Source: Candidatus Asbonarchaeum danakilense (GTDB lineage Archaea > Nanohalarchaeota > Nanosalinia > Nanosalinales > Nanoanaerosalinaceae). Taken from it: a stretch of DNA of 17,668 nucleotides. The notes below the pieces were generated by a model. It was not told the DNA's origin. It saw only the letters and a program-made list of their open reading frames with translations, and ran no database searches. Position numbers and translations under genes: made by a program. Numbering within the stretch: position 1 is the first letter of the stretch; the number at the start of each line of letters is the position of its first letter. This document shows, piece by piece, positions 250-17,383 of this stretch. The stretch spans positions 1-17,668 of the forward strand of contig JAXINV010000076.1 of NCBI GenBank assembly GCA_034190465.1, written 5' to 3'.

Positions 250-322
250 TGCGCCGGCCGGGATTTGAACCCGGGTCGCCAGCATGGGAGGCTGGAGTCG
301 TAAGCCACTGGACCACCGGCGC
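250..322 (-). tRNA. tRNA-Gly(CCC), no intron, CCA not encoded
   Basis: The reverse complement folds as a cloverleaf: acceptor GCGCCGG/CCGGCGC, D-loop with TGG, anticodon arm CCAGC-CT-CCC-AT-GCTGG, T arm CCGGG-TTCAAAT-CCCGG, discriminator A. Confidence 0.96.
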
Positions 323-1139: not shown

Positions 1140-1751
1140 ATGACGTGGCGGGAGAAATCGGTCACAGTCGATGCCGACAGCGAATTCATCTTCAAATCCG
1201 TCCTCGGAGATGTCAAGATCGACCTGTCCGGTATCAAGCGGGACGAACTGACCCGGGGCGATGAGTGGAAGAAGATCAAATCCACCATGGACCCGAACGA
1301 GATCCTGGAGGGCTTCCTGCCCTGGGACCGCGTCACCGAGATCTCGACCAAGGAGGACTTCCTCAGTTACCCGCACATCGACATCGAGGTCGAGAAAGAA
1401 GATGCTCCCGGCACAAAACGGTTGATGATCTTCTTCAAGAAGGACACACCGGAAGGATTTGACGAAGTCCAGGACTGCTTCAAGACCATCCGGAAGATGT
1501 GGAACGCCTACCGGCAGCGGAACAAGCTCCACTCCCTCAACTACAGCTTCCAGGACAACACCCACCGGCTCACCCCGGAGGAAACCGGGGAGGAACAAGA
1601 GGGTGACGAAGCGACCAGCGACAAGGAGGAAAGAGAGGAAGACGAGGAACAGCGGCAGCAGGACGACGGAGACAGTGACGGCGGCATCGGCGACATCATC
1701 GACAAGGCGCTCAGCAGCCCCGGCGACCTGATGGACAGGTTCGGGTCGTAG
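1140..1751 (+). CDS. Hypothetical protein (203 aa): possible PH-like beta domain, acidic linker, C-terminal amphipathic helix
   Basis: ATG 1140 chosen because ATTATAA (1110-1116) lies about 25 bp upstream and the ORF-track start overlaps the previous gene. LPWDRVTEI...IDIEV...LMIFF followed by a helix suggests a PH-like fold (inference). The tail is D/E-rich. Confidence 0.7.
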   Translation: MTWREKSVTVDADSEFIFKSVLGDVKIDLSGIKRDELTRGDEWKKIKSTMDPNEILEGFLPWDRVTEISTKEDFLSYPHIDIEVEKEDAPGTKRLMIFFKKDTPEGFDEVQDCFKTIRKMWNAYRQRNKLHSLNYSFQDNTHRLTPEETGEEQEGDEATSDKEEREEDEEQRQQDDGDSDGGIGDIIDKALSSPGDLMDRFGS

Positions 1752-1831
1752 CGGCCGCTAAAGGACCGAAACAGGGGCCAGGCAACACATTTATATTATC
1801 TCACCGGGAAGTGAGGTATGAGGGCTGTTTA

Positions 1832-2470
1832 ATGGGAGTGATCCAGGACATCGCAGAGAAGGTCTTCGGCTCACCTGACGGTTCGCTTGATATCGAGCAG
1901 CTTACGCTGGACCAGCTCAACGAGGAGAAGGCCAACATCAAGGCCTCGGTCAGACTCAAGCGTGACAGGCACGAAGACCTCGCGAAGAAACGTGAACGAC
2001 TGTTCGAAAAGATCGTCGACACCGACGACGACCTTCTCAAAAAGGAACTTGCAGAAGAGATCTCCTCCATCGAGGACGAGATGGCAATCCTGCACAACGA
2101 GCACGCCCAGCTCATGGACGCCCTCCGGGTCATCGACGGCCTGATCTCCATCAAGCGCAAGGAGCAGATGATGGAGCGTGAAGGCCTGATCAACGAGATC
2201 CGCAACATGAAGAAGGAGGACATCGTCGAGAAACTGCGCAGGGCCGACGTCCGGGAGATGATCCGGGACGAACAGTGGGACCGTCTCAACTCCATGCTCA
2301 AAGGCCAGCTCTCACCGAAGGAGCGCCAGAACGAGCGCGTGGACGAGATCATCCAGCAGGCAGAGGATATCAAGAACCTGCAGGACGAGCTCGGTACCGA
2401 AGAAGCCGTCAAGGAGGCGCTGCGCAACCGCGACGAGAAACGGAAGGAAGACCGTGAGATGAACGTATAG
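1832..2470 (+). CDS. Coiled-coil protein, putative ESCRT-III/CdvB(Snf7)-like (212 aa)
   Basis: Helix-favouring charged protein of ESCRT-III size with N-terminal amphipathic MGVIQDIAEKVFG and a long helical hairpin. RERLFEKIV...LAEEISSI resembles the CdvB hairpin turn. It lies directly upstream of a Vps4-like ATPase. TTTATATT at about 1790-1797. Confidence 0.7.
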   Translation: MGVIQDIAEKVFGSPDGSLDIEQLTLDQLNEEKANIKASVRLKRDRHEDLAKKRERLFEKIVDTDDDLLKKELAEEISSIEDEMAILHNEHAQLMDALRVIDGLISIKRKEQMMEREGLINEIRNMKKEDIVEKLRRADVREMIRDEQWDRLNSMLKGQLSPKERQNERVDEIIQQAEDIKNLQDELGTEEAVKEALRNRDEKRKEDREMNV

Positions 2471-2500
2471 CGCTCCCATCGCTTCTGAAGGTGGCAGGCC

Positions 2501-3688
2501 TTGTACGAGAAAAAGCTGCGCGAAATCTTCAAGGAAAACAAGAACAAGGCAGAGGCAGCACTGGACCAAGGCGACAAGGCGGCGGCCGCATCCTACTACG
2601 AGAACTGTGGCGACATCCTGATGGAAGAAGCTAAGAACAAAACAGGCCCCGCCAAGAAAGAGAAAAAGAACCTCGCCGAGAAATACTACGAGATCAGCAA
2701 AAACCTCGCCGGTCGCAGCGACTCGCTCAAGGAGAAATACAACGGCGGCGGAAGCGGGGGTGACGGGAAAAGCGGTTCCGGAAGCTCCGAGGACGACGAC
2801 TTCGCCGAATACGTCCAGCGGTTCATCCAGGAATCCAACACCACCTGGAACGATGTCGCAGGGCTGCAGGAGACGAAAAAGAACCTGCGTGAATCGTTCG
2901 CCCTCTCCGCCATCGAGAACAAGCCCGCCGCCATCGAATCCATCCACTCCATCCTGCTGTACGGCCCGCCAGGCACCGGTAAGACGCTGCTCGCGTCCGC
3001 TGTCGCCGGCTCCCACGACTACCCCTTCTTCAACGTCAAACTATCCCACGCCCTCTCCAAGTACTACGGCGAATCCGGCAAGATCATCTCCCAGCTGTTC
3101 AGCGCGGCACGGGAGAAGGCTCCGGCGATCGTCTTCTTCGATGAACTGGACTCCATCGCGATGTCACGGGGCGGAGACATGGACGAAGCCACCAGGCGCG
3201 TGCTCTCCACACTTCTCACAGAACTTTCCGGGTTCGACAAGGAGAACAGCGACATCATGTTCGTCGGCGCCACCAACACCCCCTGGGACCTTGACCCCGC
3301 CATCCTCTCACGTATCGAGCGTGTCATCTACGTACCACTGCCTGACGAGACCACTGCCCGGAAGATCATCGAGCTCAATACCGTCGAAGAAGGCCTCGAA
3401 ATGGACTGTAACGTCGAGGACGTCGCCAGGCAGTGCGTTGACCGGAACTACTCCGGCAGAGAGATCAAGAACGTTACCAAAGAAGCCGTCAGGCACATGG
3501 TCGACGCGATGAACCCTGAACTGGAGAACCTCGCCGATCAGCCGGTCGATGATGTACGGGACTACCAGCTCAATTTGCGTGGTCTGACATTCGACGACTT
3601 CAAACACGCATTCCAGCAGATCGATCCCAAGACCGACCCGCAGATGGTGCAGCGGTACAGGGAGTGGGGTGAACAGTTCGGTGGTTGA
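2501..3688 (+). CDS. Vps4/CdvC-like AAA+ ATPase with N-terminal MIT-like domain
   Basis: Three-helix N-terminus (KAEAALDQGDKAAAASYYENC...AEKYYEISKNL) and a G/S linker. Motifs: TWNDVAGL, Walker A GPPGTGKT, pore loop SKYYGES, Walker B VFFDELD, GATNTPWDLDPAILSR, YSGREI, and a Vps4-type C-terminal helix YREWGEQFGG. Single AAA domain. TTG start preceded by SD-like GAAGGTGG. Confidence 0.88.
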   Translation: MYEKKLREIFKENKNKAEAALDQGDKAAAASYYENCGDILMEEAKNKTGPAKKEKKNLAEKYYEISKNLAGRSDSLKEKYNGGGSGGDGKSGSGSSEDDDFAEYVQRFIQESNTTWNDVAGLQETKKNLRESFALSAIENKPAAIESIHSILLYGPPGTGKTLLASAVAGSHDYPFFNVKLSHALSKYYGESGKIISQLFSAAREKAPAIVFFDELDSIAMSRGGDMDEATRRVLSTLLTELSGFDKENSDIMFVGATNTPWDLDPAILSRIERVIYVPLPDETTARKIIELNTVEEGLEMDCNVEDVARQCVDRNYSGREIKNVTKEAVRHMVDAMNPELENLADQPVDDVRDYQLNLRGLTFDDFKHAFQQIDPKTDPQMVQRYREWGEQFGG

Positions 3689-3689
3689 T

Positions 3690-4385
3690 ATGCGACGTGT
3701 CCTCATCCTTCTCACCGCAGCCGTCCTCGCCGGATGTCTGGGCGGTAACGTCACTGAACAGCAGGCAATGGAAGCTGTCAGGCAGACCGACAGCTACCAG
3801 CAGCTCAACGGCAACGTCACAACCACCGCCTGGAAGGTCAACCAGTCCTCGTTCCGTCAGGCAGCCAACATCTCCGGCGTACCAACCCAGCGACAGGCGG
3901 TGCTCTACGGCCTCCAGACCTTCAGCGACTTCCCGACTGACCCCGGTTTCATCGTCCGCGCCACCGGTGACGACGCCGGATACTACTACCACGTCGGTCA
4001 GGACGGCAAAGTGAGCGCAACGGTCAGCATGGACGCCCTGCAGAAAGAGATAACGTCCAAGATGCAGCAGACGCTCGCCGACATGCAGCAAAACATCCAG
4101 CAGATGCAGCAGTGTTCGATAACCCGCCTATCGATAGAGATGGCACGTTACAGCAACGACGACAGCCTTTTAACGGTCAGCGTCCTCAACACCGGGCAGC
4201 GGACAGTCCCAACGATCCGTGCTGAAGCCCTGAATGACGGCGCAGCAGTAAAATCAACGACAGCCCAGGAACTTGCTGCAGGCGAGTACAGCACATTCCG
4301 ATTGACGGTCGAACGCCAGCCCGATACGGTACGGATCGTTCCGACCGGCTGCCCCGACTTCGCTGTGACCCAGTCCCTCCGATGA
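3690..4385 (+). CDS. Predicted lipoprotein with C-terminal Ig/pilin-like beta domain
   Basis: MRRVLILLTAAVLAG-C lipobox. Starts 1 nt after the ATPase stop. Sequons NVT (x2), NQS and NIS, a Q-rich helix, and a C-terminal domain with VSVLNTG and a Cys pair (CSIT...TGCP). Confidence 0.8.
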   Translation: MRRVLILLTAAVLAGCLGGNVTEQQAMEAVRQTDSYQQLNGNVTTTAWKVNQSSFRQAANISGVPTQRQAVLYGLQTFSDFPTDPGFIVRATGDDAGYYYHVGQDGKVSATVSMDALQKEITSKMQQTLADMQQNIQQMQQCSITRLSIEMARYSNDDSLLTVSVLNTGQRTVPTIRAEALNDGAAVKSTTAQELAAGEYSTFRLTVERQPDTVRIVPTGCPDFAVTQSLR

Positions 4386-4409
4386 CACGGGCCGGCAGGC
4401 CGTGACAGA

Positions 4410-4650
4410 AACAGGCTTATATATCGTTCCACACCGATAAGATACCCGAAAAAAGACCGCATAGAATCAAGGAGACCGTAAAACGCTTTTTCTCCGCATA
4501 TAAAGAAAGAAAAAACGCTTTACCAGTGTTCGGCACTGTTGCAACTTTTCCAACCAGATTCATCACCCTTAAATGGAAATTTATCGGCGGAGAGGTTCTA
4601 TAAACGTAGAATTCGCCGTTTGGAACAATCGACACCTTTATATAAGTGGT
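4410..4650. other. AT-rich symmetric intergenic region of unknown function (ori-like or ncRNA candidate)
   Basis: Longest non-coding AT-rich stretch in the window. Inverted CTTATATA (4416-4423)/TATATAAG (4639-4646) and GTTCCA (4426-4431)/TGGAAC (4621-4626). Direct repeat AAAACGCTTT at 4480 and 4512. Confidence 0.4.
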
Positions 4651-4671
4651 GGGGGTAATGGAGGGAATAGT

Positions 4672-4956
4672 ATGGCAGCAGACGAGGACGCCCTCGCACT
4701 CTATCGGCGGGGAGCGATCCTGTTCATAAGTTCGCTTGCGGTCGTGATGACCGGGGGCGGGCTTGTGTACTACGCTGGCTTCGCCGACTCCCTCGCATCC
4801 AACGTCGCCAGCCTGATGATCAGCCTGGTCGGCGGGTACGTCCTGAAGGATGCGCTCATCCCCGGCCTCAATGTCGCCATGGATGTCGGCAGAACCTTCC
4901 TGGGAGTGGCATTCACCGTGGGCAGGCAACTCATCCGGCTGCTCCTCCATATCTGA
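4672..4956 (+). CDS. Small hydrophobic membrane protein (94 aa)
   Basis: TTTATATAAG (4637-4646) and GGAGGG precede ATG 4672. Two to three hydrophobic segments and host-like codon usage. TTTT run after the stop. Confidence 0.7.
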   Translation: MAADEDALALYRRGAILFISSLAVVMTGGGLVYYAGFADSLASNVASLMISLVGGYVLKDALIPGLNVAMDVGRTFLGVAFTVGRQLIRLLLHI

Positions 4957-5030
4957 CCCTTTTCTCCGCCCGCCCACTGCAGCGCCTATGGATTTAATTA
5001 GCTGTAGCCGTAACAGTATCCCGTGATACC

Positions 5031-6131
5031 ATGCTCATCGGCGTACCCCAGGAACGGAAAGACAACGAGAACCGTGTCGGGATGACGCCCGCAGGCGTTC
5101 AGAAACTCGTCAGCAACGGCCACACAGTCAGGATCGAAGAAGGGGCAGGCAGGGGCTCCGGCATCAGCGACGACGCATACCGTCAGGCAGGTGCCGAGTT
5201 CGTGGGGCAGGACGACAGCTGGGATGTCGACATGGTCGTCAAGGTCAAGGAACCCCTCGAATCAGAGTACGGCTACCTCGACGACCAGCTCATCTTCACC
5301 TACTTCCACCTCGCCGCCTTCCCCGACCTGACTGAGAAACTGCTCGACACCGACGTCACAGCGGTCGCCTACGAGACCGTCGAGGAGGGCGGCGACCTGC
5401 CGCTGCTGCGGCCGATGAGCCAGGTCGCCGGCAGGATGGCGCCGCTGATGGGGGCTTACTACCAGACCAGGCACAACAACGGGCGCGGCGTCCTGCCGCC
5501 AGGCATGCCCGGTGTCGAGCCCGCAGACGTCACCGTGGTCGGTGGTGGCACCGTCGGGAAGAACGCCGCCGAGGTCGCCGCCGGCATGGGCGCCGACGTC
5601 ACCGTCCTGGAGATCGACCAGGCACGGATGGAGCACCTGGAGGACGTGCTGCCCGCCAACGTTGACACCGTGCTGTCCAACGAGGTCAACATCGAGAAGC
5701 ACGTCACCGGGTCGGACATCGTCGTCGGCGCGGTCCTGGTACCTGGCGCGGCAGCGCCCGAGGTCGTGACCGAGGACCACGTCAGAGGGATGGACGACGG
5801 CTCGGTCATCGTCGACGTCGCAGTAGATCAGGGCGGCTGTGTCGCGACAACGAGACCGACCCACCACTCCGACCCGACGTACGTCGAGCACGGCGTGGTG
5901 CACTACGCCGTGACCAACATGCCCGGCGCGTACGCCCGGACAGCGACCTACGGCCTGACCAACGCCACGATCGACTACGCCGTCGAGCTGGCGGACAAGG
6001 GCTGGAAGCAGGCCTGCCAGGATAATCCTGCGCTCCGGAAGGGGCTCAACGTGGCCGGGGGACGGGTCACGGAGCAGCCGGTCGCCGAGGAGTTCGGCAT
6101 GGACTACACCCCGCCCGAGGACCTGCTCTGA
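5031..6131 (+). CDS. ald: Alanine dehydrogenase (NAD-dependent, AlaDH/PNT family)
   Basis: Motifs IGVPQE...ENRV, VKVKEP, YFHLAA, AYETV, PMSQVAGR, Rossmann GGGTVG, AVLVPGAAAP, DVAVDQGG and NMPGA. TTTAATTA upstream. Confidence 0.96.
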   Translation: MLIGVPQERKDNENRVGMTPAGVQKLVSNGHTVRIEEGAGRGSGISDDAYRQAGAEFVGQDDSWDVDMVVKVKEPLESEYGYLDDQLIFTYFHLAAFPDLTEKLLDTDVTAVAYETVEEGGDLPLLRPMSQVAGRMAPLMGAYYQTRHNNGRGVLPPGMPGVEPADVTVVGGGTVGKNAAEVAAGMGADVTVLEIDQARMEHLEDVLPANVDTVLSNEVNIEKHVTGSDIVVGAVLVPGAAAPEVVTEDHVRGMDDGSVIVDVAVDQGGCVATTRPTHHSDPTYVEHGVVHYAVTNMPGAYARTATYGLTNATIDYAVELADKGWKQACQDNPALRKGLNVAGGRVTEQPVAEEFGMDYTPPEDLL

Positions 6132-10096: not shown

Positions 10097-12289
10097 ATGG
10101 CAGACGAGACTGAAGAGATAATGGAGATCATTGAGAGCCCTGAGCAGATACGAAACATCGGTATCGTTGCGCACATCGATCACGGCAAGACGACACTGAC
10201 AGATAACCTGCTGGCCCGCGCAGGAATGATTTCAGACCAGCTGGCGGGCAACCAGCTGTTCATGGACTACGACGACCAGGAGCAGGAACGTGGCATCACG
10301 ATCTACTCCGCCAACGTCTCTATGGTCCACGAACTTGACGGCGACGACTACCTGATCAACCTCATCGACACCCCCGGCCACGTCGACTTCGGTGGGGACG
10401 TCACACGGGCGATGCGTGCCGTCGACGGCGCACTGGTCGTCGTGGACGCGGTCGACGGCGTCATGCCGCAAACCGAGACCGTGCTGCGGCAGGCGCTCAA
10501 GGAACGGGTCAAACCGATCCTGTTCATCAACAAGGTCGACCGCCTGATCCAGGAGCTGCAGCTGACGGATGACGAGATGCAGCAGCGGTTCCAGAAGATC
10601 ATCGCAGAGGTCAACAAGCTGATCAAGAAGAACATGCCTGAAGAGATGGATAAGGACTGGACCGTCGACGTCAAATCCGGCAAGGTCGCGTTCGGCTCCG
10701 CTCTGCTGAACTGGGCGATCTCCATGCCGTACATGGAGAAGTCAGGCATCACGTTCCAGGACATCGTCGACCACGTCAACGACGAGGAGAACGAGGAGCT
10801 GGCCGAGAAGGCGCCGCTCCACGAGGTCACACTGGACATGGTCGTCAACCACCTGGTCAACCCGGACGACGCGCAGAGCTACCGGATCCCTGCGATCTGG
10901 AACGGCGACGTCGACTCCGAGGAAGGCCAGGCGATGGCGAACTGTGACGCCAGCGGCGACATGATCGGCGTCGTGACCAACGTCGAATCCGACAAACACG
11001 CCGGTACGATCTGTACCGCCAGACTGTTTGCGGGCTCTGTCGAGGAAGGTGAGGAGATTTACGGCATCGGCTCCCGTTCCGCGCAGCGCGTGCAGAAGGT
11101 CGGTATCTACTCCGGCCCGCGCAAGCTGCCGGTCGACCACGTCCCGGCGGGCAACATCGCCGCGCTGACAGGCGTGGACTACTCCACCGGTGAGACGGTC
11201 GTCGCGAAGGACCTCGAGATCGAGCCGTTCGAACAGATCGAGCACGTCTTCGAGCCGGTCGTCACGAAGTCGCTGGAGCCGAAGAAGACATCCGACCTCC
11301 CCGACCTCATCGAGGCGCTCAGGAGCCGGGCGAAGGAGGACAGCACGATCAAGGTCTCCATCGACGAGGAGACAGGCGAGACACTGGTCTCCGGCCTCGG
11401 CGAGCTGCACATCGAGGCCAAGGTCGAGCGGTACCTGCAGGAGCAGGGCATCGAGATCCAGGTCTCCGAGCCGATCGTGGTCTACCGTGAATCCATCCGG
11501 AACAAGTCCGAAGAGTTCATGGGCAAGTCCCCGAACCGGCACAACAAGTTCTGGCTGTCCGTCGAGCCGATCAGCGACGAGGTCTACGAGAAGCTCATGT
11601 CCGGCGACGTTCCGGAGGGCAAGGTCCGGAGCCAGGACGAACAGGAAGTCCGGGACGAGCTTCAGGAGGTGGGCTTCGACAAGGATGATGCCGCGGACGT
11701 ACACAACGTCTACAACGGCAACCTGTTCATCGACAAGACCCGTGGCGTGACGCACCTGAACGAGATCATGGAGCTGATCGTCGAGGCGTTCCAGGACATC
11801 GTCGACGAAGGCCCGCTGGCGAACGAGCCGTGCGTCAAGCTCGCCGTGAAGATCCACGACGCCGACATCCACGAAGACCCGGCGCACCGTGGCCCGGCAC
11901 AGGTCATCCCGGCTGTCAGGGATGCCGTGACACGTGGCATGGTCGACGGCGACGCGGTCCTGCTGGAGCCGAAGCAGATCGTCCAGATCAACAGCCCGCA
12001 GGAACAGATGGGCTCCGCGATGAAGGAAGTCAACAACCGCCGCGGCGAGATCATGGACATGGAAGAGGAGGACGAGTCCTCCAAGATCACCGCCAAGGTT
12101 CCGGTCGGCGAGATGTTCGGGTTCGAGGCCGATCTCAAGTCCGCGACCGGCGGCAAGGGCTTCTACAACCTGATGGACCAGGTCTTCGAACCGATGCCCG
12201 ACAACCTGCAGAAGGAGACCATCCTCAAGATCAGGGAGCGCAAGGGCATGAAGACCGAGATCCCCGGCATGGACACCGGCGAGGAGTAA
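10097..12289 (+). CDS. fusA: Translation elongation factor aEF-2
   Basis: Motifs AHIDHGKTT, ERGITI, DTPGHVDF, NKVD, GLGELH and KSPNRHN. Archaeal diphthamide loop HEDPAHRGPAQ. 730 aa. Confidence 0.98.
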   Translation: MADETEEIMEIIESPEQIRNIGIVAHIDHGKTTLTDNLLARAGMISDQLAGNQLFMDYDDQEQERGITIYSANVSMVHELDGDDYLINLIDTPGHVDFGGDVTRAMRAVDGALVVVDAVDGVMPQTETVLRQALKERVKPILFINKVDRLIQELQLTDDEMQQRFQKIIAEVNKLIKKNMPEEMDKDWTVDVKSGKVAFGSALLNWAISMPYMEKSGITFQDIVDHVNDEENEELAEKAPLHEVTLDMVVNHLVNPDDAQSYRIPAIWNGDVDSEEGQAMANCDASGDMIGVVTNVESDKHAGTICTARLFAGSVEEGEEIYGIGSRSAQRVQKVGIYSGPRKLPVDHVPAGNIAALTGVDYSTGETVVAKDLEIEPFEQIEHVFEPVVTKSLEPKKTSDLPDLIEALRSRAKEDSTIKVSIDEETGETLVSGLGELHIEAKVERYLQEQGIEIQVSEPIVVYRESIRNKSEEFMGKSPNRHNKFWLSVEPISDEVYEKLMSGDVPEGKVRSQDEQEVRDELQEVGFDKDDAADVHNVYNGNLFIDKTRGVTHLNEIMELIVEAFQDIVDEGPLANEPCVKLAVKIHDADIHEDPAHRGPAQVIPAVRDAVTRGMVDGDAVLLEPKQIVQINSPQEQMGSAMKEVNNRRGEIMDMEEEDESSKITAKVPVGEMFGFEADLKSATGGKGFYNLMDQVFEPMPDNLQKETILKIRERKGMKTEIPGMDTGEE

Positions 12290-12304
12290 ACTCCCTCGTC
12301 AGCG

Positions 12305-12321
12305 TTCCTTTCTCTTTTTCC
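12305..12321 (+). terminator. Archaeal oligo-T terminator after EF-2
   Basis: TTCCTTTCTCTTTTTCC starting 16 bp after the stop. Confidence 0.6.
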
Positions 12322-12418
12322 CTGGGTCACTCACTAAATCAACGGTGCGTGCCGCAGCGATGTTGCTGCAGGGCGCAACATTCATGAACGCGCAGGAGCC
12401 ATTGTCCGGTACAGTCAG

Positions 12419-13564
12419 ATGGAGTTCGAGAACATCGTCGCACGCGGGACCGCGTCACTGCTGCTCGTCGGCCTGGTCATCGGAGCGCTCCTCCTCGCCA
12501 CAAGCGTCGCCGTCAGCAGGACCGGGCTCGGCGACCCGTACACCATCCCCGAGGAGCACCAGGACCTGCTGCAGCACGTCGAAAAGATCGAATACTGGAA
12601 GTACGGCAAACGGTACGTCATCAACACCACCAGCCCACAGTACCGGCAGATCAGGCAGGCGACCGTCGCAGCGCTCGCCAGGTTGCAGAACACGACGATA
12701 CGCGGCACCACCAGGGACTGCACCAGCCGGCTCCGGGAGCGGCAGGTCGTCCAGGTCTACTTCGACCAGCCCATCAAGACTGTGCACGGTCTCAGCGACA
12801 GCTTCAGTTTCCCGCTCAGCGGCCATATCCACTTCGGATGCACAACGGAAGGCGACAGCAGCAGCCTCCATGCAAGTCCCGTTCCCTGGGAGGCGAAAAT
12901 CCGTGAAGCGCTCTCCTCCTACCGGCCGCATCTGCTCCAGGCGTACGGGGACATCTGCAGGTCCGTCGACGCCGGGTTCGTCACAGAGCTCACGACACAG
13001 CCCGGACGGGTGACAGAAGCCACGTTCACCACCCCTGTCCGGATCGCACCGGCCAACGCCTCGGACAGCACTCTCATCGACCAGACCGTGCTCACCGTCA
13101 GAGCCAACCAGGCCTGCCTCGGCATCGATCCCGCGGAACTGGTACGGGGAACTGTGACTGGCACCACGACCAGGACCGTCACCCTCCACCAGCAACACGA
13201 CGGCTTCCCTGTCTACGGCGCACGGTTCACAGCCACCGTCCGGGACGGGCTGCTGCAGCGGTTCCGGACGACCGACTGGTTCCACCAGGAGAACATCACC
13301 GTGCAGGTCAACGTCGGCGAGCTCCGCGCCATCCAGAACGCCCGCGACTACCTGAACCGTGACTACCTGGCAGGGCAGACACGGGCCGGGATCTACAACG
13401 GACGGGTGGCGTGGCGGGTGCCGTTGATCGTCTCGAACACCACTGCCCGGCTGGTCTATGTCAGCGCCCGTGAAGGGAACGTCCTGGGCTTGGCGATGGA
13501 CAGGGCCGCCCCTTACCAGACACCGTCCTATGAGCACATGCCGTACAACCGGTACGTCCGGTAG
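12419..13564 (+). CDS. Membrane-anchored protein with FTP- and PepSY-like propeptide domains, no peptidase domain
   Basis: N-terminal TM/signal segment. TVTLHQQHDGFPVYGA is FTP-like and AWRV...VYVSAREGNVL is PepSY-like. No HExxH motif. Four Cys and several NxT/S sequons. Confidence 0.7.
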   Translation: MEFENIVARGTASLLLVGLVIGALLLATSVAVSRTGLGDPYTIPEEHQDLLQHVEKIEYWKYGKRYVINTTSPQYRQIRQATVAALARLQNTTIRGTTRDCTSRLRERQVVQVYFDQPIKTVHGLSDSFSFPLSGHIHFGCTTEGDSSSLHASPVPWEAKIREALSSYRPHLLQAYGDICRSVDAGFVTELTTQPGRVTEATFTTPVRIAPANASDSTLIDQTVLTVRANQACLGIDPAELVRGTVTGTTTRTVTLHQQHDGFPVYGARFTATVRDGLLQRFRTTDWFHQENITVQVNVGELRAIQNARDYLNRDYLAGQTRAGIYNGRVAWRVPLIVSNTTARLVYVSAREGNVLGLAMDRAAPYQTPSYEHMPYNRYVR

Positions 13565-13655
13565 GGACGACCCCGATGCCTATAAAAATGTAGCGTACAC
13601 ACGCTCTCCTCCCGGTCCGGGCCCTCCGACATCCGCGGCCAGCGGCCGATTACCT

Positions 13656-13704
13656 TTATAAAGATTGTCGAAGGAACGGTAGGTAGCTAATCGATATTAG
13701 GTGA
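13656..13704 (+). promoter_or_regulatory. TATA box and SD of EF-1alpha gene
   Basis: TTTATAAA at 13656-13663 and AGGTGA at about 13699-13704, before ATG 13711. Confidence 0.7.
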
Positions 13705-13710
13705 ACCCAA

Positions 13711-14994
13711 ATGGCAGAGAAACCGCACATTAATCTTGTATCCATCGGACACGTGGACCACGGCAAGTCCACGATGATCGGTAGGCTTCTCTGGGACACA
13801 GAGAACCTCCCCGAATCCGAAATGAGGAAACTCGAAGAAGAAGCTGAAGAACAGGGCAAGGAGACGTTCGAATTTGCCTTCGCCATGGACAATCTCAAGG
13901 AAGAACGTGAGCGAGGCGTCACAATCGACCTCCGACACCAGAAGTTCGAGTCGGATGACTACGAATTCACGATGATCGACGCTCCTGGCCACCGTGACTT
14001 TATCAAGAACATGATCACAGGCGCTGCACAGGCCGACGCCGGCATCTTGGTCGTTGCCGCGGACGACGGCGTGCAGCCCCAGACCAAGGAGCACTCCTAC
14101 CTTGCCAAAACCCTCGGCATCGAGCAGCTGATCGTCGCCATCAACAAGATGGACAAAGAGGACTGGGACGAGGACACGTTCAACGAGCGTGTCGATGAAG
14201 TCAAGGACCTGCTCAAGGGCGTCGGCTTCCCTGTCGACGACATCACGTTCGTCCCGATCTCCGCCTACGAGGGCGACAACGTCGTCGAGGAGAGCGACAA
14301 TATGGGTTGGTACTCCGGTCCGACCCTGCTCGAGACCCTGGACAACCTCGAAGAACCGACCAAACCAGTCGAACTACCGCTGCGCGTCCCGATCCAGGAC
14401 GCCTACAAGATCAAGGGCGTCGGTACTGTTCCGGTCGGACGTGTCGAGACAGGCAAGTTGAACGTCGGCGACGATGTCAAGTTCGAGCCGGCCTCCACCC
14501 GCCTAAACAAAAACGTCGGCGGCGAGGTCAAGTCCATCGAACAGCACCACGAAGAAGTTGACCAGGCTGATCCTGGCGCCAACATCGGATTCAACGTCCG
14601 GGGCGTCGGCAAGGACGATGTCAAGCGTGGTGACGTCGCCGGCACACCGGACAACCCGCCGACAGTGGTTGACAACTTCCAGGCACAGATCATCGTGCTC
14701 AGCCACCCCAACGTCATCACTGAGGGCTACACGCCGGTGTTCCACGTCAACACGGCCCAGGTCGCCTGTACGTTCGAGGACCTGGTCAAGACGATGGATC
14801 CCAAGTCGGGCGAGGAGAAGGAGCAGAACCCCGACTACATCCAGGAAGGTGAGTCAGCCATCGTCGAGCTCCGACCGCAGAGCCCGCTCGTCATCGAGAA
14901 GAACGACGACATCCCGCAGCTCGCACGGTTCGCGATCCGGGACATGGGCCAGACAGTCGGCGCCGGCATGTGTATCGACCTGGAAGAGGCGTAA
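13711..14994 (+). CDS. tuf: Translation elongation factor aEF-1alpha
   Basis: Motifs [50 protein letters not shown] and [11 protein letters not shown]. Confidence 0.98.
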
Positions 14995-15009
14995 AAGCCT
15001 CTCCCACCT

Positions 15010-15028
15010 CTTCTCTTTTTCTTTTTCC
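15010..15028 (+). terminator. Archaeal oligo-T terminator after tuf
   Basis: CTTCTCTTTTTCTTTTTCC just after the stop, with the same style and spacing as after EF-2. Confidence 0.65.
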
Positions 15029-15107
15029 TGACAGACGTTAAGCCACACCGGTTCCTCCCTGCCGTATATAAAACTCGCGGCCGTTGTGCTGTCCGAGGAT
15101 ACTCACA

Positions 15108-15455
15108 ATGTCACGTGTCGAACAGTGGACGAAAGATCTGGCCGAGAACGCGATCGAGTTCAAGGACGGCATCGTCAAGGGGCTGGACACGCCCGCCCAC
15201 CTGACAGAGGCCGTCACCTACGACGAGGAAACAGCTGAACGCGACGAACCGTACACGGTCGGCGCGAAGAAGGACCTGGACCAGGAATACGCCGCATCGG
15301 ACGACGACTTCGCCTACGAGGCAGGTCGTGCCGTCGGCGCAGCAGGCCCAGCGGTCGCGTTCCTCGGCACAGCCAACCCTGCCGCGCTTGCACTGTACGC
15401 CCCGACAGCGATCGAGGGCGCGAGCAACGCGGTCAAGGAGAACTACCTGGACTGA
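15108..15455 (+). CDS. Hypothetical protein (115 aa) with Ala/Gly-rich hydrophobic C-terminal half
   Basis: TATATAAAA at 15065-15073 and GAGG before ATG 15108. Acidic N-terminal half, then AYEAGRAVGAAGPAVAFLG. Confidence 0.7.
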   Translation: MSRVEQWTKDLAENAIEFKDGIVKGLDTPAHLTEAVTYDEETAERDEPYTVGAKKDLDQEYAASDDDFAYEAGRAVGAAGPAVAFLGTANPAALALYAPTAIEGASNAVKENYLD

Positions 15456-16265
15456 TCACACCGGCTCCAGCAGCACCAGGGGCACCATCAGCAGCGCCCC
15501 AAACAGGAAGCCCGCGGCCAGCTCTTTCTTACCGCCGCCGGGCAGCTCCTCGCCGTGCTCCAGTCCCTCCGGCAGGAACTCGTACAGCACCAGGAAGATC
15601 ATCGCTCCGGCGCCGAACCCGTAGCCGAACGGCAGCAGCTGCTTCGCGGCGCGGACAAACACGAACGCGATCACCGCCCCTACCGGCTGCGGCAGGCTGG
15701 AGAAGATCGACCACCCCACCATCCGCCACTTCGAGACACCCATCGACCGGAGCGGGATCGAGATCGCGGTGCCCTCCGGGATGTTGTGGATCGCGATCGC
15801 CACGGTCATCACCACGCCCAGCACCGGGACGGCCAGGCCGAACAGCGGGAGACCCCCGGTCAGACCCATCTCAGCGAATGAGACACCGACCGCCACGCCC
15901 TCAGGGAAGCTGTGGACGGTCAGGATACCGAGGATGATCAGGAGCTTGTTGAAATCCGCCTGCTCGAACTCGCGCGGATCGACCTCATGGCTGTGCACGA
16001 TCTTCTCCGCGGCAAGGACGAGAAAAACACCGGTAAGGATACCTGAACCGAGGAGGAAGCCTGAACCCGCCTCACGCAGTCCTTCACGCAGCAAGCCAAA
16101 CACGGAGGCAGAGACCATGATCCCGGAGGCGAGGCCCCACAGCCCGACCTCCCACCGCAGGTTCAGCTCGTCGACCAGAAAGAACGGCAGGGCCCCGATA
16201 CCGGTGGCTATCGCGGTGACGAGGCCGGCGAGGAAGACGAAGACGATGCTGTCGATCGCGACCAT
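15456..16265 (-). CDS. ZIP (ZupT/GufA) family divalent metal transporter
   Basis: About 8 hydrophobic segments, with signature motifs TVHSFPEG and IAIHNIPEG, and GAMIFLVLYEFLPE. Confidence 0.93.
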   Translation of the reverse strand: MVAIDSIVFVFLAGLVTAIATGIGALPFFLVDELNLRWEVGLWGLASGIMVSASVFGLLREGLREAGSGFLLGSGILTGVFLVLAAEKIVHSHEVDPREFEQADFNKLLIILGILTVHSFPEGVAVGVSFAEMGLTGGLPLFGLAVPVLGVVMTVAIAIHNIPEGTAISIPLRSMGVSKWRMVGWSIFSSLPQPVGAVIAFVFVRAAKQLLPFGYGFGAGAMIFLVLYEFLPEGLEHGEELPGGGKKELAAGFLFGALLMVPLVLLEPV

Positions 16266-16303
16266 GCCACGTCATGCGGGCGTAACGGATAAGAAAACCG
16301 GTG

Positions 16304-17032
16304 TCAGGTGGAGATGTCGACGGAGATCAGATCGACGTCACTGGTCCCGGGCTCCCAGAACGAGTCGATCAGGTCGTCGAGCTCGTCGGACGCGGCCCAA
16401 CCGATGTCGAGGCGCTGGTAGACGTCGTCGGACGCGGTGCCGTCGTACCATTCGTCCAGCCCGGCCTGGAACTCGTCGGGGTGCTCCTCGACGGCTTGCT
16501 CCTCGATCCGTTCCCTTATCTGGTCGGGCTCCGCGTAGGCGTACCGCGGCCCGTCCAGGTCGCTGTATTTTTCGACCGATCCCCGGTCGCGGTACGTGAG
16601 GATCGCGTCCGCAAGCTCCTCGGAGGCGGTCCGGTCGGGCAGGTAGACGTGGAACTCGATGTCGTCGCCGTGCTCGACGTCGTCGGTCTGGAGGTCAAAC
16701 TGCTCCATGACACTGCCGATGCGGCGGTCACGTGTCATGTTGCCGCGGGAAGCTGCCTCCATGTACTCGTCCACCCAGTCGATCGCCTCCTGCCTGGCCC
16801 ACTCCCTGTCGAACCCCATGTCGCGGGCGTAGGCGGCGGGGTCCTGCGTGGTGTAGCCGAGCAGTTCGTTGAACCGTTCACGTGCCTGTTCCTCGACGTA
16901 GTCCTGGTCGATGCCGTAGTCGTCGGCTCTGTCGAGGGCGCGGTCGCGGTGGCCGTGCCTGACGGCTGCATCGACCTTGTTCCGCAGCAGCGGCTTGAGA
17001 ACGGTGTTCCGTGCCCGGTCCAGCAGCTCCAT
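16304..17032 (-). CDS. Hypothetical highly acidic protein (242 aa)
   Basis: Host-like codon usage on the minus strand, D/E-rich, begins 16 nt after the rps10 stop. Confidence 0.75.
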   Translation of the reverse strand: MELLDRARNTVLKPLLRNKVDAAVRHGHRDRALDRADDYGIDQDYVEEQARERFNELLGYTTQDPAAYARDMGFDREWARQEAIDWVDEYMEAASRGNMTRDRRIGSVMEQFDLQTDDVEHGDDIEFHVYLPDRTASEELADAILTYRDRGSVEKYSDLDGPRYAYAEPDQIRERIEEQAVEEHPDEFQAGLDEWYDGTASDDVYQRLDIGWAASDELDDLIDSFWEPGTSDVDLISVDIST

Positions 17033-17048
17033 TGAGAACCACGCTGCT

Positions 17049-17357
17049 TTATTCGATCAGTTCGACCTCGATGTTGACGCCTTCAGGGACGTGGACACGC
17101 ATGATCTGTCGGAGTGCGCGCTCTGAGTCAGAAACATCGATGATACGCTTGTGGACGCGCTGCTCCCATGTCTCGTACGTCTCTGCGCCTTCCCCGTCCG
17201 GCGACTTCCGCACTGGGACGTCCATGACATCGGTCGGCAGCGGGACAGGCCCTGAGACGTTGGCGTTGTACTCCCTGGCAGTATCGACCACATCGTCTGC
17301 AAGGTCGTCGACCCGGTCGGGGTCGGTGCTGCTCAGCTTGACTCGTGCCTTTTCCAT
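17049..17357 (-). CDS. rps10: 30S ribosomal protein uS10
   Basis: MEKARVKLSS, SGPVPLPT, VPVRKSPDGEG, WEQRVHKRIID. 102 aa from ATG 17357. TTTATAAG upstream on the minus strand. Confidence 0.97.
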   Translation of the reverse strand: MEKARVKLSSTDPDRVDDLADDVVDTAREYNANVSGPVPLPTDVMDVPVRKSPDGEGAETYETWEQRVHKRIIDVSDSERALRQIMRVHVPEGVNIEVELIE

Positions 17358-17383
17358 CGCTACCACGAAACGTGCGGGTGAAT

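What the first reader, a model, noticed from the sequence alone, without database searches (positions are those of the whole stretch)
1832..4385. Candidate CdvA-less ESCRT-III + Vps4 + lipoprotein membrane-remodelling operon in a halophilic, probably DPANN, archaeon
Seen: a 212-aa charged helical protein with an N-terminal amphipathic helix, 30 bp upstream of a single-domain AAA ATPase. The ATPase has a MIT-like N-terminus and the Vps4-type YxEWxxQFG end. A lipobox protein starts 1 nt after its stop, and there is one TATA box before the first gene. Established: ESCRT-III/CdvB polymers are disassembled by MIT-domain Vps4/CdvC, are best known from TACK and Asgard archaea, and in Sulfolobus are encoded with CdvA. 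RERLFEKIV...LAEEISSI recalls the CdvB hairpin turn (from memory, not aligned). Inference: this is a divergent ESCRT module in which a surface lipoprotein, not CdvA, is the operon partner. It could act in vesicle budding, membrane repair or host-contact channel formation rather than division. Scattered divergent archaeal ESCRT loci have been reported, so novelty needs checking.
Basis: partly seen in the sequence, partly recalled or inferred. Interest (0 to 1): 0.88.

Follow-up and report, generated by a model that had tools for sequence, protein, structure and literature searches.

The report
Minimal ESCRT-III–Vps4 pair in Nanohaloarchaeota
A tiny salt-loving symbiotic archaeon carries a stripped-down version of the ESCRT membrane-cutting machinery (one filament protein plus its recycling motor), which had not been reported in this lineage; the neighbouring surface lipoprotein is a chance insertion, and the gene that travels with the pair is a PH-fold protein.

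Summary
Core confirmed; partner corrected. The 212-aa protein (1832-2470) is an ESCRT-III of the arCOG09747/09749 family: reciprocal profiles against proteins so labelled by Makarova et al. 2024 give E 1e-6 and 1e-14, and hhalign 97.9%. The ATPase (2501-3688) is a Vps4. Its nearest named relatives outside the lineage are that paper's Vps4 accessions, and it groups with them (100/99), not with Cdc48/PAN. The genome is nanohaloarchaeal. The lipoprotein is not a partner: it is an insertion absent from all 20 related loci. The conserved neighbour is the upstream PH-fold gene (1140-1751), next to ESCRT-III in 26 of 30 genomes, but binding is unshown. Among 70 phylum genomes: ESCRT-III 30, Vps4 13, FtsZ 68, PspA 0. 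Eighteen genomes keep ESCRT-III without Vps4, and all 11 of these examined lack a C-terminal segment. Best reading: non-division membrane repair or vesicle shedding. A 2025 review says DPANN lack ESCRT-III, but Makarova's tables already list Altiarchaeales and one Woesearchaeote; no Nanohaloarchaeota. The scan noted other DPANN ESCRT loci before, on other DNA.

The parts
1140..1751 (+). PH-fold protein (residues ~11-132) + acidic disordered linker + short C-terminal amphipathic helix (184-192); conserved upstream neighbour, candidate adaptor (partnership unproven)
   Evidence: Model; all 50 VIA rows are PH-superfamily domains, Z 10.5-8.0, Vps36 PH domain 2cay Z 9.3 rmsd 2.9 over 93 residues among ties; Foldseek best E 0.004; present in 60 of 70 phylum genomes; upstream of ESCRT-III in 26 of 30
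1790..1797 (+). TATA-box-like element, own promoter of the ESCRT-III gene
   Evidence: an AT-rich element also stands in the PH/ESCRT-III gap of the 11 related loci printed (seen by eye)
1832..2470 (+). ESCRT-III (Snf7 superfamily; arCOG09747/09749-type), 212 aa: amphipathic alpha0, basic alpha1, long hairpin, short helices, C-terminal helix pair
   Evidence: no Pfam hit
2501..3688 (+). Vps4-family AAA+ ATPase, 395 aa: MIT-like N-terminus (~1-72), one AAA domain, Vps4_C-like end
3690..4385 (+). Lipoprotein with C-terminal CARDB/pilin-like beta domain; lineage-restricted insertion, NOT part of the conserved module

Best explanation
A minimal, cytoplasmic ESCRT-III + Vps4 module of the euryarchaeal Main/Halo_FHA type, spread across three families of Nanohaloarchaeota and since reduced in several lineages. 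Shown by homology: the filament subunit and its ATPase. Inferred from the family: ESCRT-III docks on the inner membrane face through its N-terminal amphipathic helix and basic first helix and polymerises; the Vps4 hexamer grips a C-terminal element through its MIT-like domain and pulls subunits off with ATP. Inferred here: that element lies around residues 179-200. The job is not division, which FtsZ1/FtsZ2/SepF cover, but sealing or stabilising the membrane and/or pinching off vesicles, in a phylum with no detectable PspA. The usual partners (arCOG08177, arCOG09748 winged helix, kinase, phosphatase, second ESCRT-III) are not found. The lipoprotein is a bystander. Confidence about 0.93 for the two identities, 0.85 for the pair acting together, 0.85 for a non-division role; repair versus vesicles is not resolved.
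For: ESCRT-III: a profile of 70 nanohaloarchaeal sequences ranks 9 ESCRT-III-type ORFs from Vps4 loci first among 4247 ORFs, including WP_062390968 (arCOG09747, E 1.3e-6) and WP_062390966 (arCOG09749, E 8.4e-5); next hit E 0.7 (labels). The reverse profile hits only this ORF among 7825 genome frames (E 9.6e-15; next 0.31); hhalign 97.9%, 184 columns. Model has ESCRT-III topology; residues 33-60 have net charge +6. Vps4: nearest named non-nanohaloarchaeal hits are WP_014011612, WP_014121457, WP_013099900, WP_013799795 (43-46% identity over 85-99% of length), all listed as Vps4 by Makarova; tree clade 100/99 with them, sister to a Nitrosopumilus CdvC-like row, apart from Cdc48/PAN; N-termini align at 97.4%. 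Adjacent in 12 of 13. C-terminal segment present in 10 of 10 Vps4-bearing genomes examined; 8-9 residues deleted in 8 of 8 family-f3 genomes and truncated in 3 of 3 genus-g5 genomes, all lacking Vps4 (21 of the 30 ESCRT-III genomes examined). FtsZ 68 of 70, PspA over cut-off 0 of 70; SepF in this genome.
Against: No Pfam Snf7/PspA hit. Fold searches alone are not diagnostic: Foldseek ranks PspA, Vipp1, Vipp1, CHMP1B first but at E 0.5-1.2; VIA gives generic hairpins, Z at most 9.2, with CHMP4B 8.0 and Snf7 7.9 among ties. NCBIfam CdvC 152 bits is far below its 650 cut-off and CDC48 scores higher (190). No canonical MIM1 or MIM2 pattern in 23 of 23 sequences. The MIT fold was not modelled. ESCRT-III persists without Vps4 in 18 of 30 genomes, 3 of them single-contig and 98-99% complete, so the ATPase is dispensable. 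The segment/Vps4 co-loss rests on about two evolutionary events. The arCOG09747/09749 label is itself a computational assignment; that family is untested at the bench as far as the sections read show.
Confidence: 0.72

Rival explanations
1. Three-part system: the upstream PH-fold protein is the adaptor, working like the Vps36 GLUE/PH domain of ESCRT-II. [quoted passage not shown]
For: Same-strand upstream neighbour in 26 of 30 ESCRT-III genomes across three families whose further flanks differ (Yip1-like, DinB-like, citrate-synthase-like ORFs; last two labels by inspection). Long tail in all 13 Vps4 genomes (one cut by a contig end) and absent in 19 of 19 family-f3 copies printed. PH fold.
Against: The PH gene is in 60 of 70 genomes, half of them without ESCRT-III, so it has another job. 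Unlinked in 4 of 4 genus-g5 genomes, 3 of which keep a tail without Vps4. ESCRT-III has its own TATA element. No homologue in 4247 ORFs that include Main-clade loci or in 14 short Halobacteriota loci. Vps36 is only one of many tied PH matches.
Confidence: 0.3
2. One reading: the surface lipoprotein is the operon partner in place of CdvA.
For: Starts 1 nt after the Vps4 stop with no TTTATAWW in between, so probably co-transcribed. A contig from a second study carries its N-terminal part at the same spacing from the next gene (run X6 record 31).
Against: Absent from 20 of 20 related loci; clean insertion against G001 and G002. The only full-length homologue among 41 genomes is in G004, where neither ESCRT-III nor Vps4 was found; other hits cover only the C-terminal domain and are mostly short pilin-like proteins. 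A lipobox protein should face outward while ESCRT-III/Vps4 are cytoplasmic (inference).
Confidence: 0.05
3. The pair performs or assists cell division (final scission of very small cells).
For: Makarova 2024 suggests minimal ESCRT systems without sorting factors were co-opted for division in TACK and Thermoplasmata; this one is equally minimal.
Against: FtsZ in 68 of 70 genomes, two copies plus SepF here; ESCRT-III not found in 40 of 70, including single-contig genomes; no CdvA over cut-off.
Confidence: 0.12
4. The module builds or severs the contact with the host cell (symbiosis-specific function).
For: Nanohaloarchaeota depend on hosts (abstract listing, PMC6642349); ESCRT-III acts on membrane necks (general knowledge); the genes lie among core genes of the phylum.
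Against: No data tie it to hosts; not found in 40 of 70 genomes of the same lifestyle, nor in 401 Nanoarchaeota or 301 Micrarchaeota genomes sampled.
Confidence: 0.1

Closest known systems
Euryarchaeal 'Main' (and Halo_FHA) clade ESCRT systems, Makarova et al. 2024 mBio PMC10936438 (parts 1-5 of 8 of main text read; supplements 8 and 9 searched by term)
   Same: ESCRT-III of the arCOG09747/09749 family directly before a Vps4 (arCOG01307) of the same broad clade; coexists with FtsZ/SepF.
   Different: One ESCRT-III (tandem pair in two f4 genomes) instead of 09747+09749(+07402); arCOG08177, arCOG09748, kinase, PP2C, FHA protein not found; PH-fold upstream neighbour; forms its own Vps4 subclade (100/100); Vps4 not found in 18 of 30 ESCRT-III genomes.
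Sulfolobales CdvA/CdvB/CdvC
   Same: ESCRT-III + MIT-AAA core; NCBIfam CdvC aligns over residues 5-393.
   Different: No CdvA over cut-off, no winged-helix extension, no MIM2 pattern; separate branch of the tree; FtsZ present.
PspA/Vipp1 (bacterial and haloarchaeal ESCRT-III superfamily)
   Same: Same overall architecture (top Foldseek ranks, not significant); Vps4-less copies would work like PspA, without a disassembly ATPase.
   Different: No PF04012 match; sequence family is Snf7-like arCOG09747/09749.
Vps36 GLUE/PH domain (ESCRT-II)
   Same: PH fold, Z 9.3, gene beside ESCRT-III.
   Different: Tied with dozens of unrelated PH/PTB/FERM domains; no winged-helix domains; no sequence similarity shown. 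Analogy only.

Membership tests
ESCRT-III (Snf7/CdvB; arCOG09747/09749) | Full-length sequence homology to assigned family members | tested here: met
   (reciprocal profiles; hhalign 97.9%, E 3.2e-13, 184 columns)
ESCRT-III (Snf7/CdvB; arCOG09747/09749) | alpha0 + long alpha1/alpha2-3 hairpin + short helices | tested here: met
   model, mean pLDDT 80.7, hairpin blocks 84-96
ESCRT-III (Snf7/CdvB; arCOG09747/09749) | Significant structural match to a solved ESCRT-III | tested here: inconclusive
   E 0.5 or worse; Z about 8, tied with generic hairpins
ESCRT-III (Snf7/CdvB; arCOG09747/09749) | Pfam Snf7 cut-off | tested here: not met
   the model is insensitive here: in the controls it reached cut-off in 0 of 14 genomes, Sulfolobus included
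ESCRT-III (Snf7/CdvB; arCOG09747/09749) | Canonical MIM1/MIM2 motif | tested here: not met
   0 of 23 sequences (MIM2 pattern adapted from PMC8970359, MIM1 pattern recalled); that paper finds no MIM2 in Euryarchaeota either
ESCRT-III (Snf7/CdvB; arCOG09747/09749) | Polymerisation and membrane remodelling | not testable with these tools
   needs bench work
Vps4/CdvC (arCOG01307) | Single AAA domain grouping with assigned Vps4, apart from Cdc48/PAN | tested here: met
   (41-row clade 100/99); no eukaryotic, Asgard, katanin or spastin rows in the tree
Vps4/CdvC (arCOG01307) | N-terminal MIT domain | tested here: inconclusive
   aligns to N-termini of assigned Vps4 (97.4%) and to CdvC model from residue 5; Pfam MIT not among the rows shown; not folded
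Vps4/CdvC (arCOG01307) | Vps4_C end | tested here: inconclusive
   E 0.0024, 18.3 bits against cut-off 21.3; 33 of 34 aligned relatives hit at E up to 0.1, best 2.5e-9
Vps4/CdvC (arCOG01307) | ESCRT gene in the neighbourhood (Makarova criterion ii) | tested here: met
   12 of 13
Main-clade ESCRT system (whole) | arCOG09748 and arCOG08177 present | tested here: not met
   small profiles (4 and 2 sequences) and tblastn find nothing in this 92%-complete genome; divergent copies could be missed
Cdv division system | CdvA present | tested here: not met
   best 17.4 bits against cut-off 30, on another contig

The most novel reading that the evidence does not exclude
Nanohaloarchaeota run a three-gene ESCRT in which a PH-fold protein, working like the GLUE/PH module of eukaryotic ESCRT-II, recruits ESCRT-III and Vps4 to the membrane, possibly at host contacts. 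The phylum would then preserve a natural series from PH + ESCRT-III + Vps4 down to a Vps4-free ESCRT-III that has shed its Vps4 handle and works like PspA, i.e. a return to the ancestral ATPase-independent mode.
Probability: 0.22. Interest if true: 0.82.

Novelty: new variant of a known kind. Interest (0 to 1): 0.62.

Why it matters
A 2025 review states that ESCRT-III is found in all major archaeal lineages except DPANN and always alongside Vps4 (PMC7619361, section 4). This family breaks both rules across a whole DPANN phylum: 30 of 70 genomes have it, and 18 of those lack a detectable Vps4. It was missed because no Pfam model sees it; a homologue sits unannotated in Nanohaloarchaea SG9, a genome included in Makarova's survey. 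The exception is not absolute news: that survey's tables list Main-type loci in Altiarchaeales and one ESCRT-III-like gene in a Woesearchaeote. The paired loss of Vps4 and a short C-terminal segment points to a non-canonical MIT-binding site and gives natural long and short variants for testing how an ESCRT-III works without its ATPase.

Tried and rejected
Pfam/NCBIfam/PDB-sequence searches of the coiled-coil protein: nothing. Fold searches: not diagnostic; ESM Atlas first hits unnamed clusters 0.95, nearest named Snf7 0.86 and PspA 0.84, leads only. Complex prediction of PH protein with ESCRT-III + MIT: 'no answer', score 0.00, no evidence either way; the MIT/ESCRT-III pair was not scored. 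Third homologue search was filled by nanohaloarchaeal rows; 120 of 230 shown. Cdc48/PAN identity rejected by tree although they top summed-score lists. Origin from haloarchaeal hosts: not shown, not rejected (AU p 0.40); the ESCRT-III quick tree has long-branch warnings. No RNA holder listed; co-transcription untested. Sigma-70 scan not applicable to archaea. Literature: searches (listings only) showed no report of ESCRT in Nanohaloarchaeota; term searches in PMC9563170 and PMC13195033 main texts gave 0 for ESCRT, Cdv, Vps4; Makarova supplements 8 and 9 have no nanohaloarchaeal component rows; supplement 7 was not searched. Subscription papers and bioRxiv supplements are not covered. Aenigmatarchaeota, Undinarchaeota and Altiarchaeota genomes were not searched.
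Full report
Observation. The three ORFs, the 30-bp and 1-nt gaps, the lipobox and the TATA element are as described. The genome is 1.2 Mb and 92% complete. Named homologues of the first two genes come from Candidatus Nanohaloarchaea, so the DPANN guess holds. An independent assembly covers 1167-5200 with 8 differences (it may be the source sample), so the arrangement does not look like an assembly error.

The 212-aa protein is an ESCRT-III. No library names it. The AlphaFold model (48 sequences, pLDDT 80.7) gives helix 3-12, a hairpin 26-63/67-109, four short helices and a final pair 168-187/189-211. Fold searches are only suggestive (Foldseek: PspA, Vipp1, CHMP1B on top, E 0.5 or worse; VIA: generic hairpins). 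Sequence bridging decides it. The Thermococcus peptonophilus plasmid locus carries WP_062390968 and WP_062390966, which Makarova et al. 2024 (PMC10936438, supplement 8) label arCOG09747 and arCOG09749, 'Snf7 family'. A profile from 70 nanohaloarchaeal sequences (all at least 47% identical to the query) finds them at E 1.3e-6 and 8.4e-5; its top 9 of 4247 ORFs are all such genes in Vps4 loci, and the next scores E 0.7. A profile of those 9 finds only this ORF among 7825 frames of the genome (E 9.6e-15); hhalign gives 97.9%, E 3.2e-13, over 184 columns. The 9 were picked by the first search, so the reverse search is a consistency check, not wholly independent. The amphipathic start is conserved (66 of 70) and residues 33-60 are net +6.

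The ATPase is a Vps4. Pfam: AAA E 2e-41, Vps4_C E 0.0024; NCBIfam CdvC aligns over 5-393 but below cut-off, and CDC48 scores higher on the core. After the nanohaloarchaeal rows, the named hits are mainly Thermococcus, Methanocaldococcus, Methanotorris and Methanoperedens proteins (120 of 3228 shown). Four checked accessions (43-46% identity) are exactly those listed as Vps4 by Makarova. In a 54-row tree of the AAA core (LG+C20) ten nanohaloarchaeal rows form a clade (100/100) inside a 41-row clade (100/99) with Thermococcales, Methanococcales, halobacterial and four bacterial rows. A Nitrosopumilus CdvC-like pair is sister (94/78), and Cdc48 and PAN lie outside. No eukaryotic, Asgard, katanin or spastin rows were available. 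The N-terminal 70 residues align with those of the assigned Vps4s (97.4%); the MIT fold was not modelled. Walker A/B and the pore-loop region are intact in the alignment. Whether the gene came from haloarchaeal hosts is open (AU p 0.40).

Synteny. Among 70 genomes of the phylum: ESCRT-III in 30, the Vps4 orthologue in 13 (five of family f1 counting this genome, 8 of 8 f4, 0 of 50 f3, 0 of 4 genus g5; in the others the best listed hits are mostly ~760-aa Cdc48-like frames at E 4e-66 or weaker). Twelve of 13 Vps4 genes directly follow ESCRT-III; the thirteenth is at a contig end. Two f4 genomes have tandem ESCRT-III genes. The family was not found in 401 Nanoarchaeota or 301 Micrarchaeota genomes sampled, while the same profile finds 16 of 401 Halobacteriota.

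The lipoprotein is a passenger. It has no hit in 20 of 20 related loci, and alignment with the same-genus and same-family genomes shows about 0.75 kb inserted right after the Vps4 stop. Of 41 genomes, 18 give hits, nearly all to the C-terminal beta domain shared with short pilin-like proteins; the one full-length homologue is in a genome where neither ESCRT gene was found. A contig of another study has the gene at the same place with a diverged 3' part, as expected of a variable surface protein. It is probably co-transcribed here, but nothing links it to the module.

The conserved neighbour is upstream. The 203-aa ORF at 1140-1751 clustered in 18 of 21 loci. It models as a PH fold plus an acidic linker and an end helix; all 50 VIA rows are PH-superfamily domains. 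It lies upstream on the same strand, within 0.9 kb, in 26 of 30 ESCRT-III genomes (counted by hand); the 4 exceptions are genus g5. The tail is present in all 13 Vps4 genomes and absent in the 19 f3 copies printed (one further f3 region gave no ORF call), but 3 of 4 g5 copies keep a tail without Vps4. Against partnership: it is in 60 of 70 genomes, and ESCRT-III has its own TATA element. I give a functional link about 0.3.

Reduction series. Eighteen of 30 genomes have ESCRT-III but no Vps4 found, three of them single-contig and 98-99% complete. In the 21 genomes aligned, all 10 with Vps4 keep the stretch around residues 179-200 (one upstream paralogue stops inside it); 8 of 8 f3 proteins lose 8-9 residues there and 3 of 3 g5 proteins end just before it. 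That is about two events, so suggestive only, but with no canonical MIM it marks the likely MIT-binding site.

Function. FtsZ is in 68 of 70 genomes; this genome has two copies and SepF, no CdvA over cut-off, and none of the Main-clade sorting and phosphorylation partners that small profiles could find. PspA reaches cut-off in 0 of 70. The review PMC7619361 (section 4 read) holds that where FtsZ and ESCRT-III coexist, ESCRT-III serves repair or vesiculation. I therefore favour a dispensable membrane-maintenance or vesicle-shedding role: polymer on the inner membrane face, recycled by Vps4 where present, PspA-like where not. These steps are inferred from family knowledge; none is shown here.

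Novelty. The same review says DPANN lack ESCRT-III. Makarova's main text (parts 1-5 of 8 read) has no occurrence of 'DPANN'; the tables list three DPANN-group Vps4, one ESCRT-III-like gene in a Woesearchaeote and Main-type genes in Altiarchaeales, which PMC13195033 counts as DPANN (passage), but no Nanohaloarchaeota, although SG9 was in the genome set and encodes the short form. PMC8970359 and PMC11237479 were seen as passages only. Paper searches showed no prior report. Earlier notes of this scan describe other DPANN ESCRT-like loci in other genomes and none resembling this sequence. Interest 0.62.

Noticed in passing
L052:59-8614 (Chloroflexota MAG) and L231:1-4655 (Ca. Chlorohelix plasmid): Bacterial loci with ESCRT-III next to Vps4: L052 has an arCOG09748-like protein, two ESCRT-III-type genes, two MIT-like AAA ATPases, a beta-propeller/TPR protein and a kinase; L231 has an ESCRT-III homologue, a second helical gene, Vps4 and a kinase. 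[quoted passage not shown] ESM Atlas top clusters were also Chloroflexota/Planctomycetota. Worth its own follow-up.
   Followed up: partly
L053, L054 (Alphaproteobacteria MAGs): Full-length Vps4-clade ATPases (tree) with no ESCRT-III homologue detected in the locus.
   Followed up: no
NZ_CP044130.1 (hit H6): Plasmid of Halomicrobium sp. LC1Hm, recalled as the host of a cultured nanohaloarchaeon, encodes a Vps4 of the same broad clade (43% identity); related Halomicrobium plasmids do too.
   Followed up: no
window 4386-4675: AT-rich 290-bp intergenic stretch, partly conserved in G001 and G002, with a TATA-like element at 4637-4644 and a G-run; promoter of the next genes or another element.
   Followed up: no
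window 1140-1751 family: The PH-fold protein is near-universal in the phylum (60 of 70) with no Pfam match: an unannotated core gene in its own right.
   Followed up: partly
G015:C34 and G027:C62: Tandem ESCRT-III duplicates; the upstream copy in G027 is divergent and ends early. G031 has the gene in two pieces.
   Followed up: partly
L033:2512-2802 (G003): A 96-aa ORF resembling a RelE-type toxin-antitoxin gene (label recalled, not tested) is inserted between the PH gene and ESCRT-III.
   Followed up: no
P0139, P0154, P0171, P0181: Vps4-clade ATPases fused to PF02457 (recalled as a diadenylate cyclase domain) or HEAT repeats, some named Ca. Methanoperedens.
   Followed up: no
window 250-322 (-), 10097-17366: tRNA-Gly(CCC); EF-2, EF-1alpha and S10 genes (by inspection) separated by inserted genes such as a 381-aa secreted protein and a ZIP transporter.
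   Followed up: no
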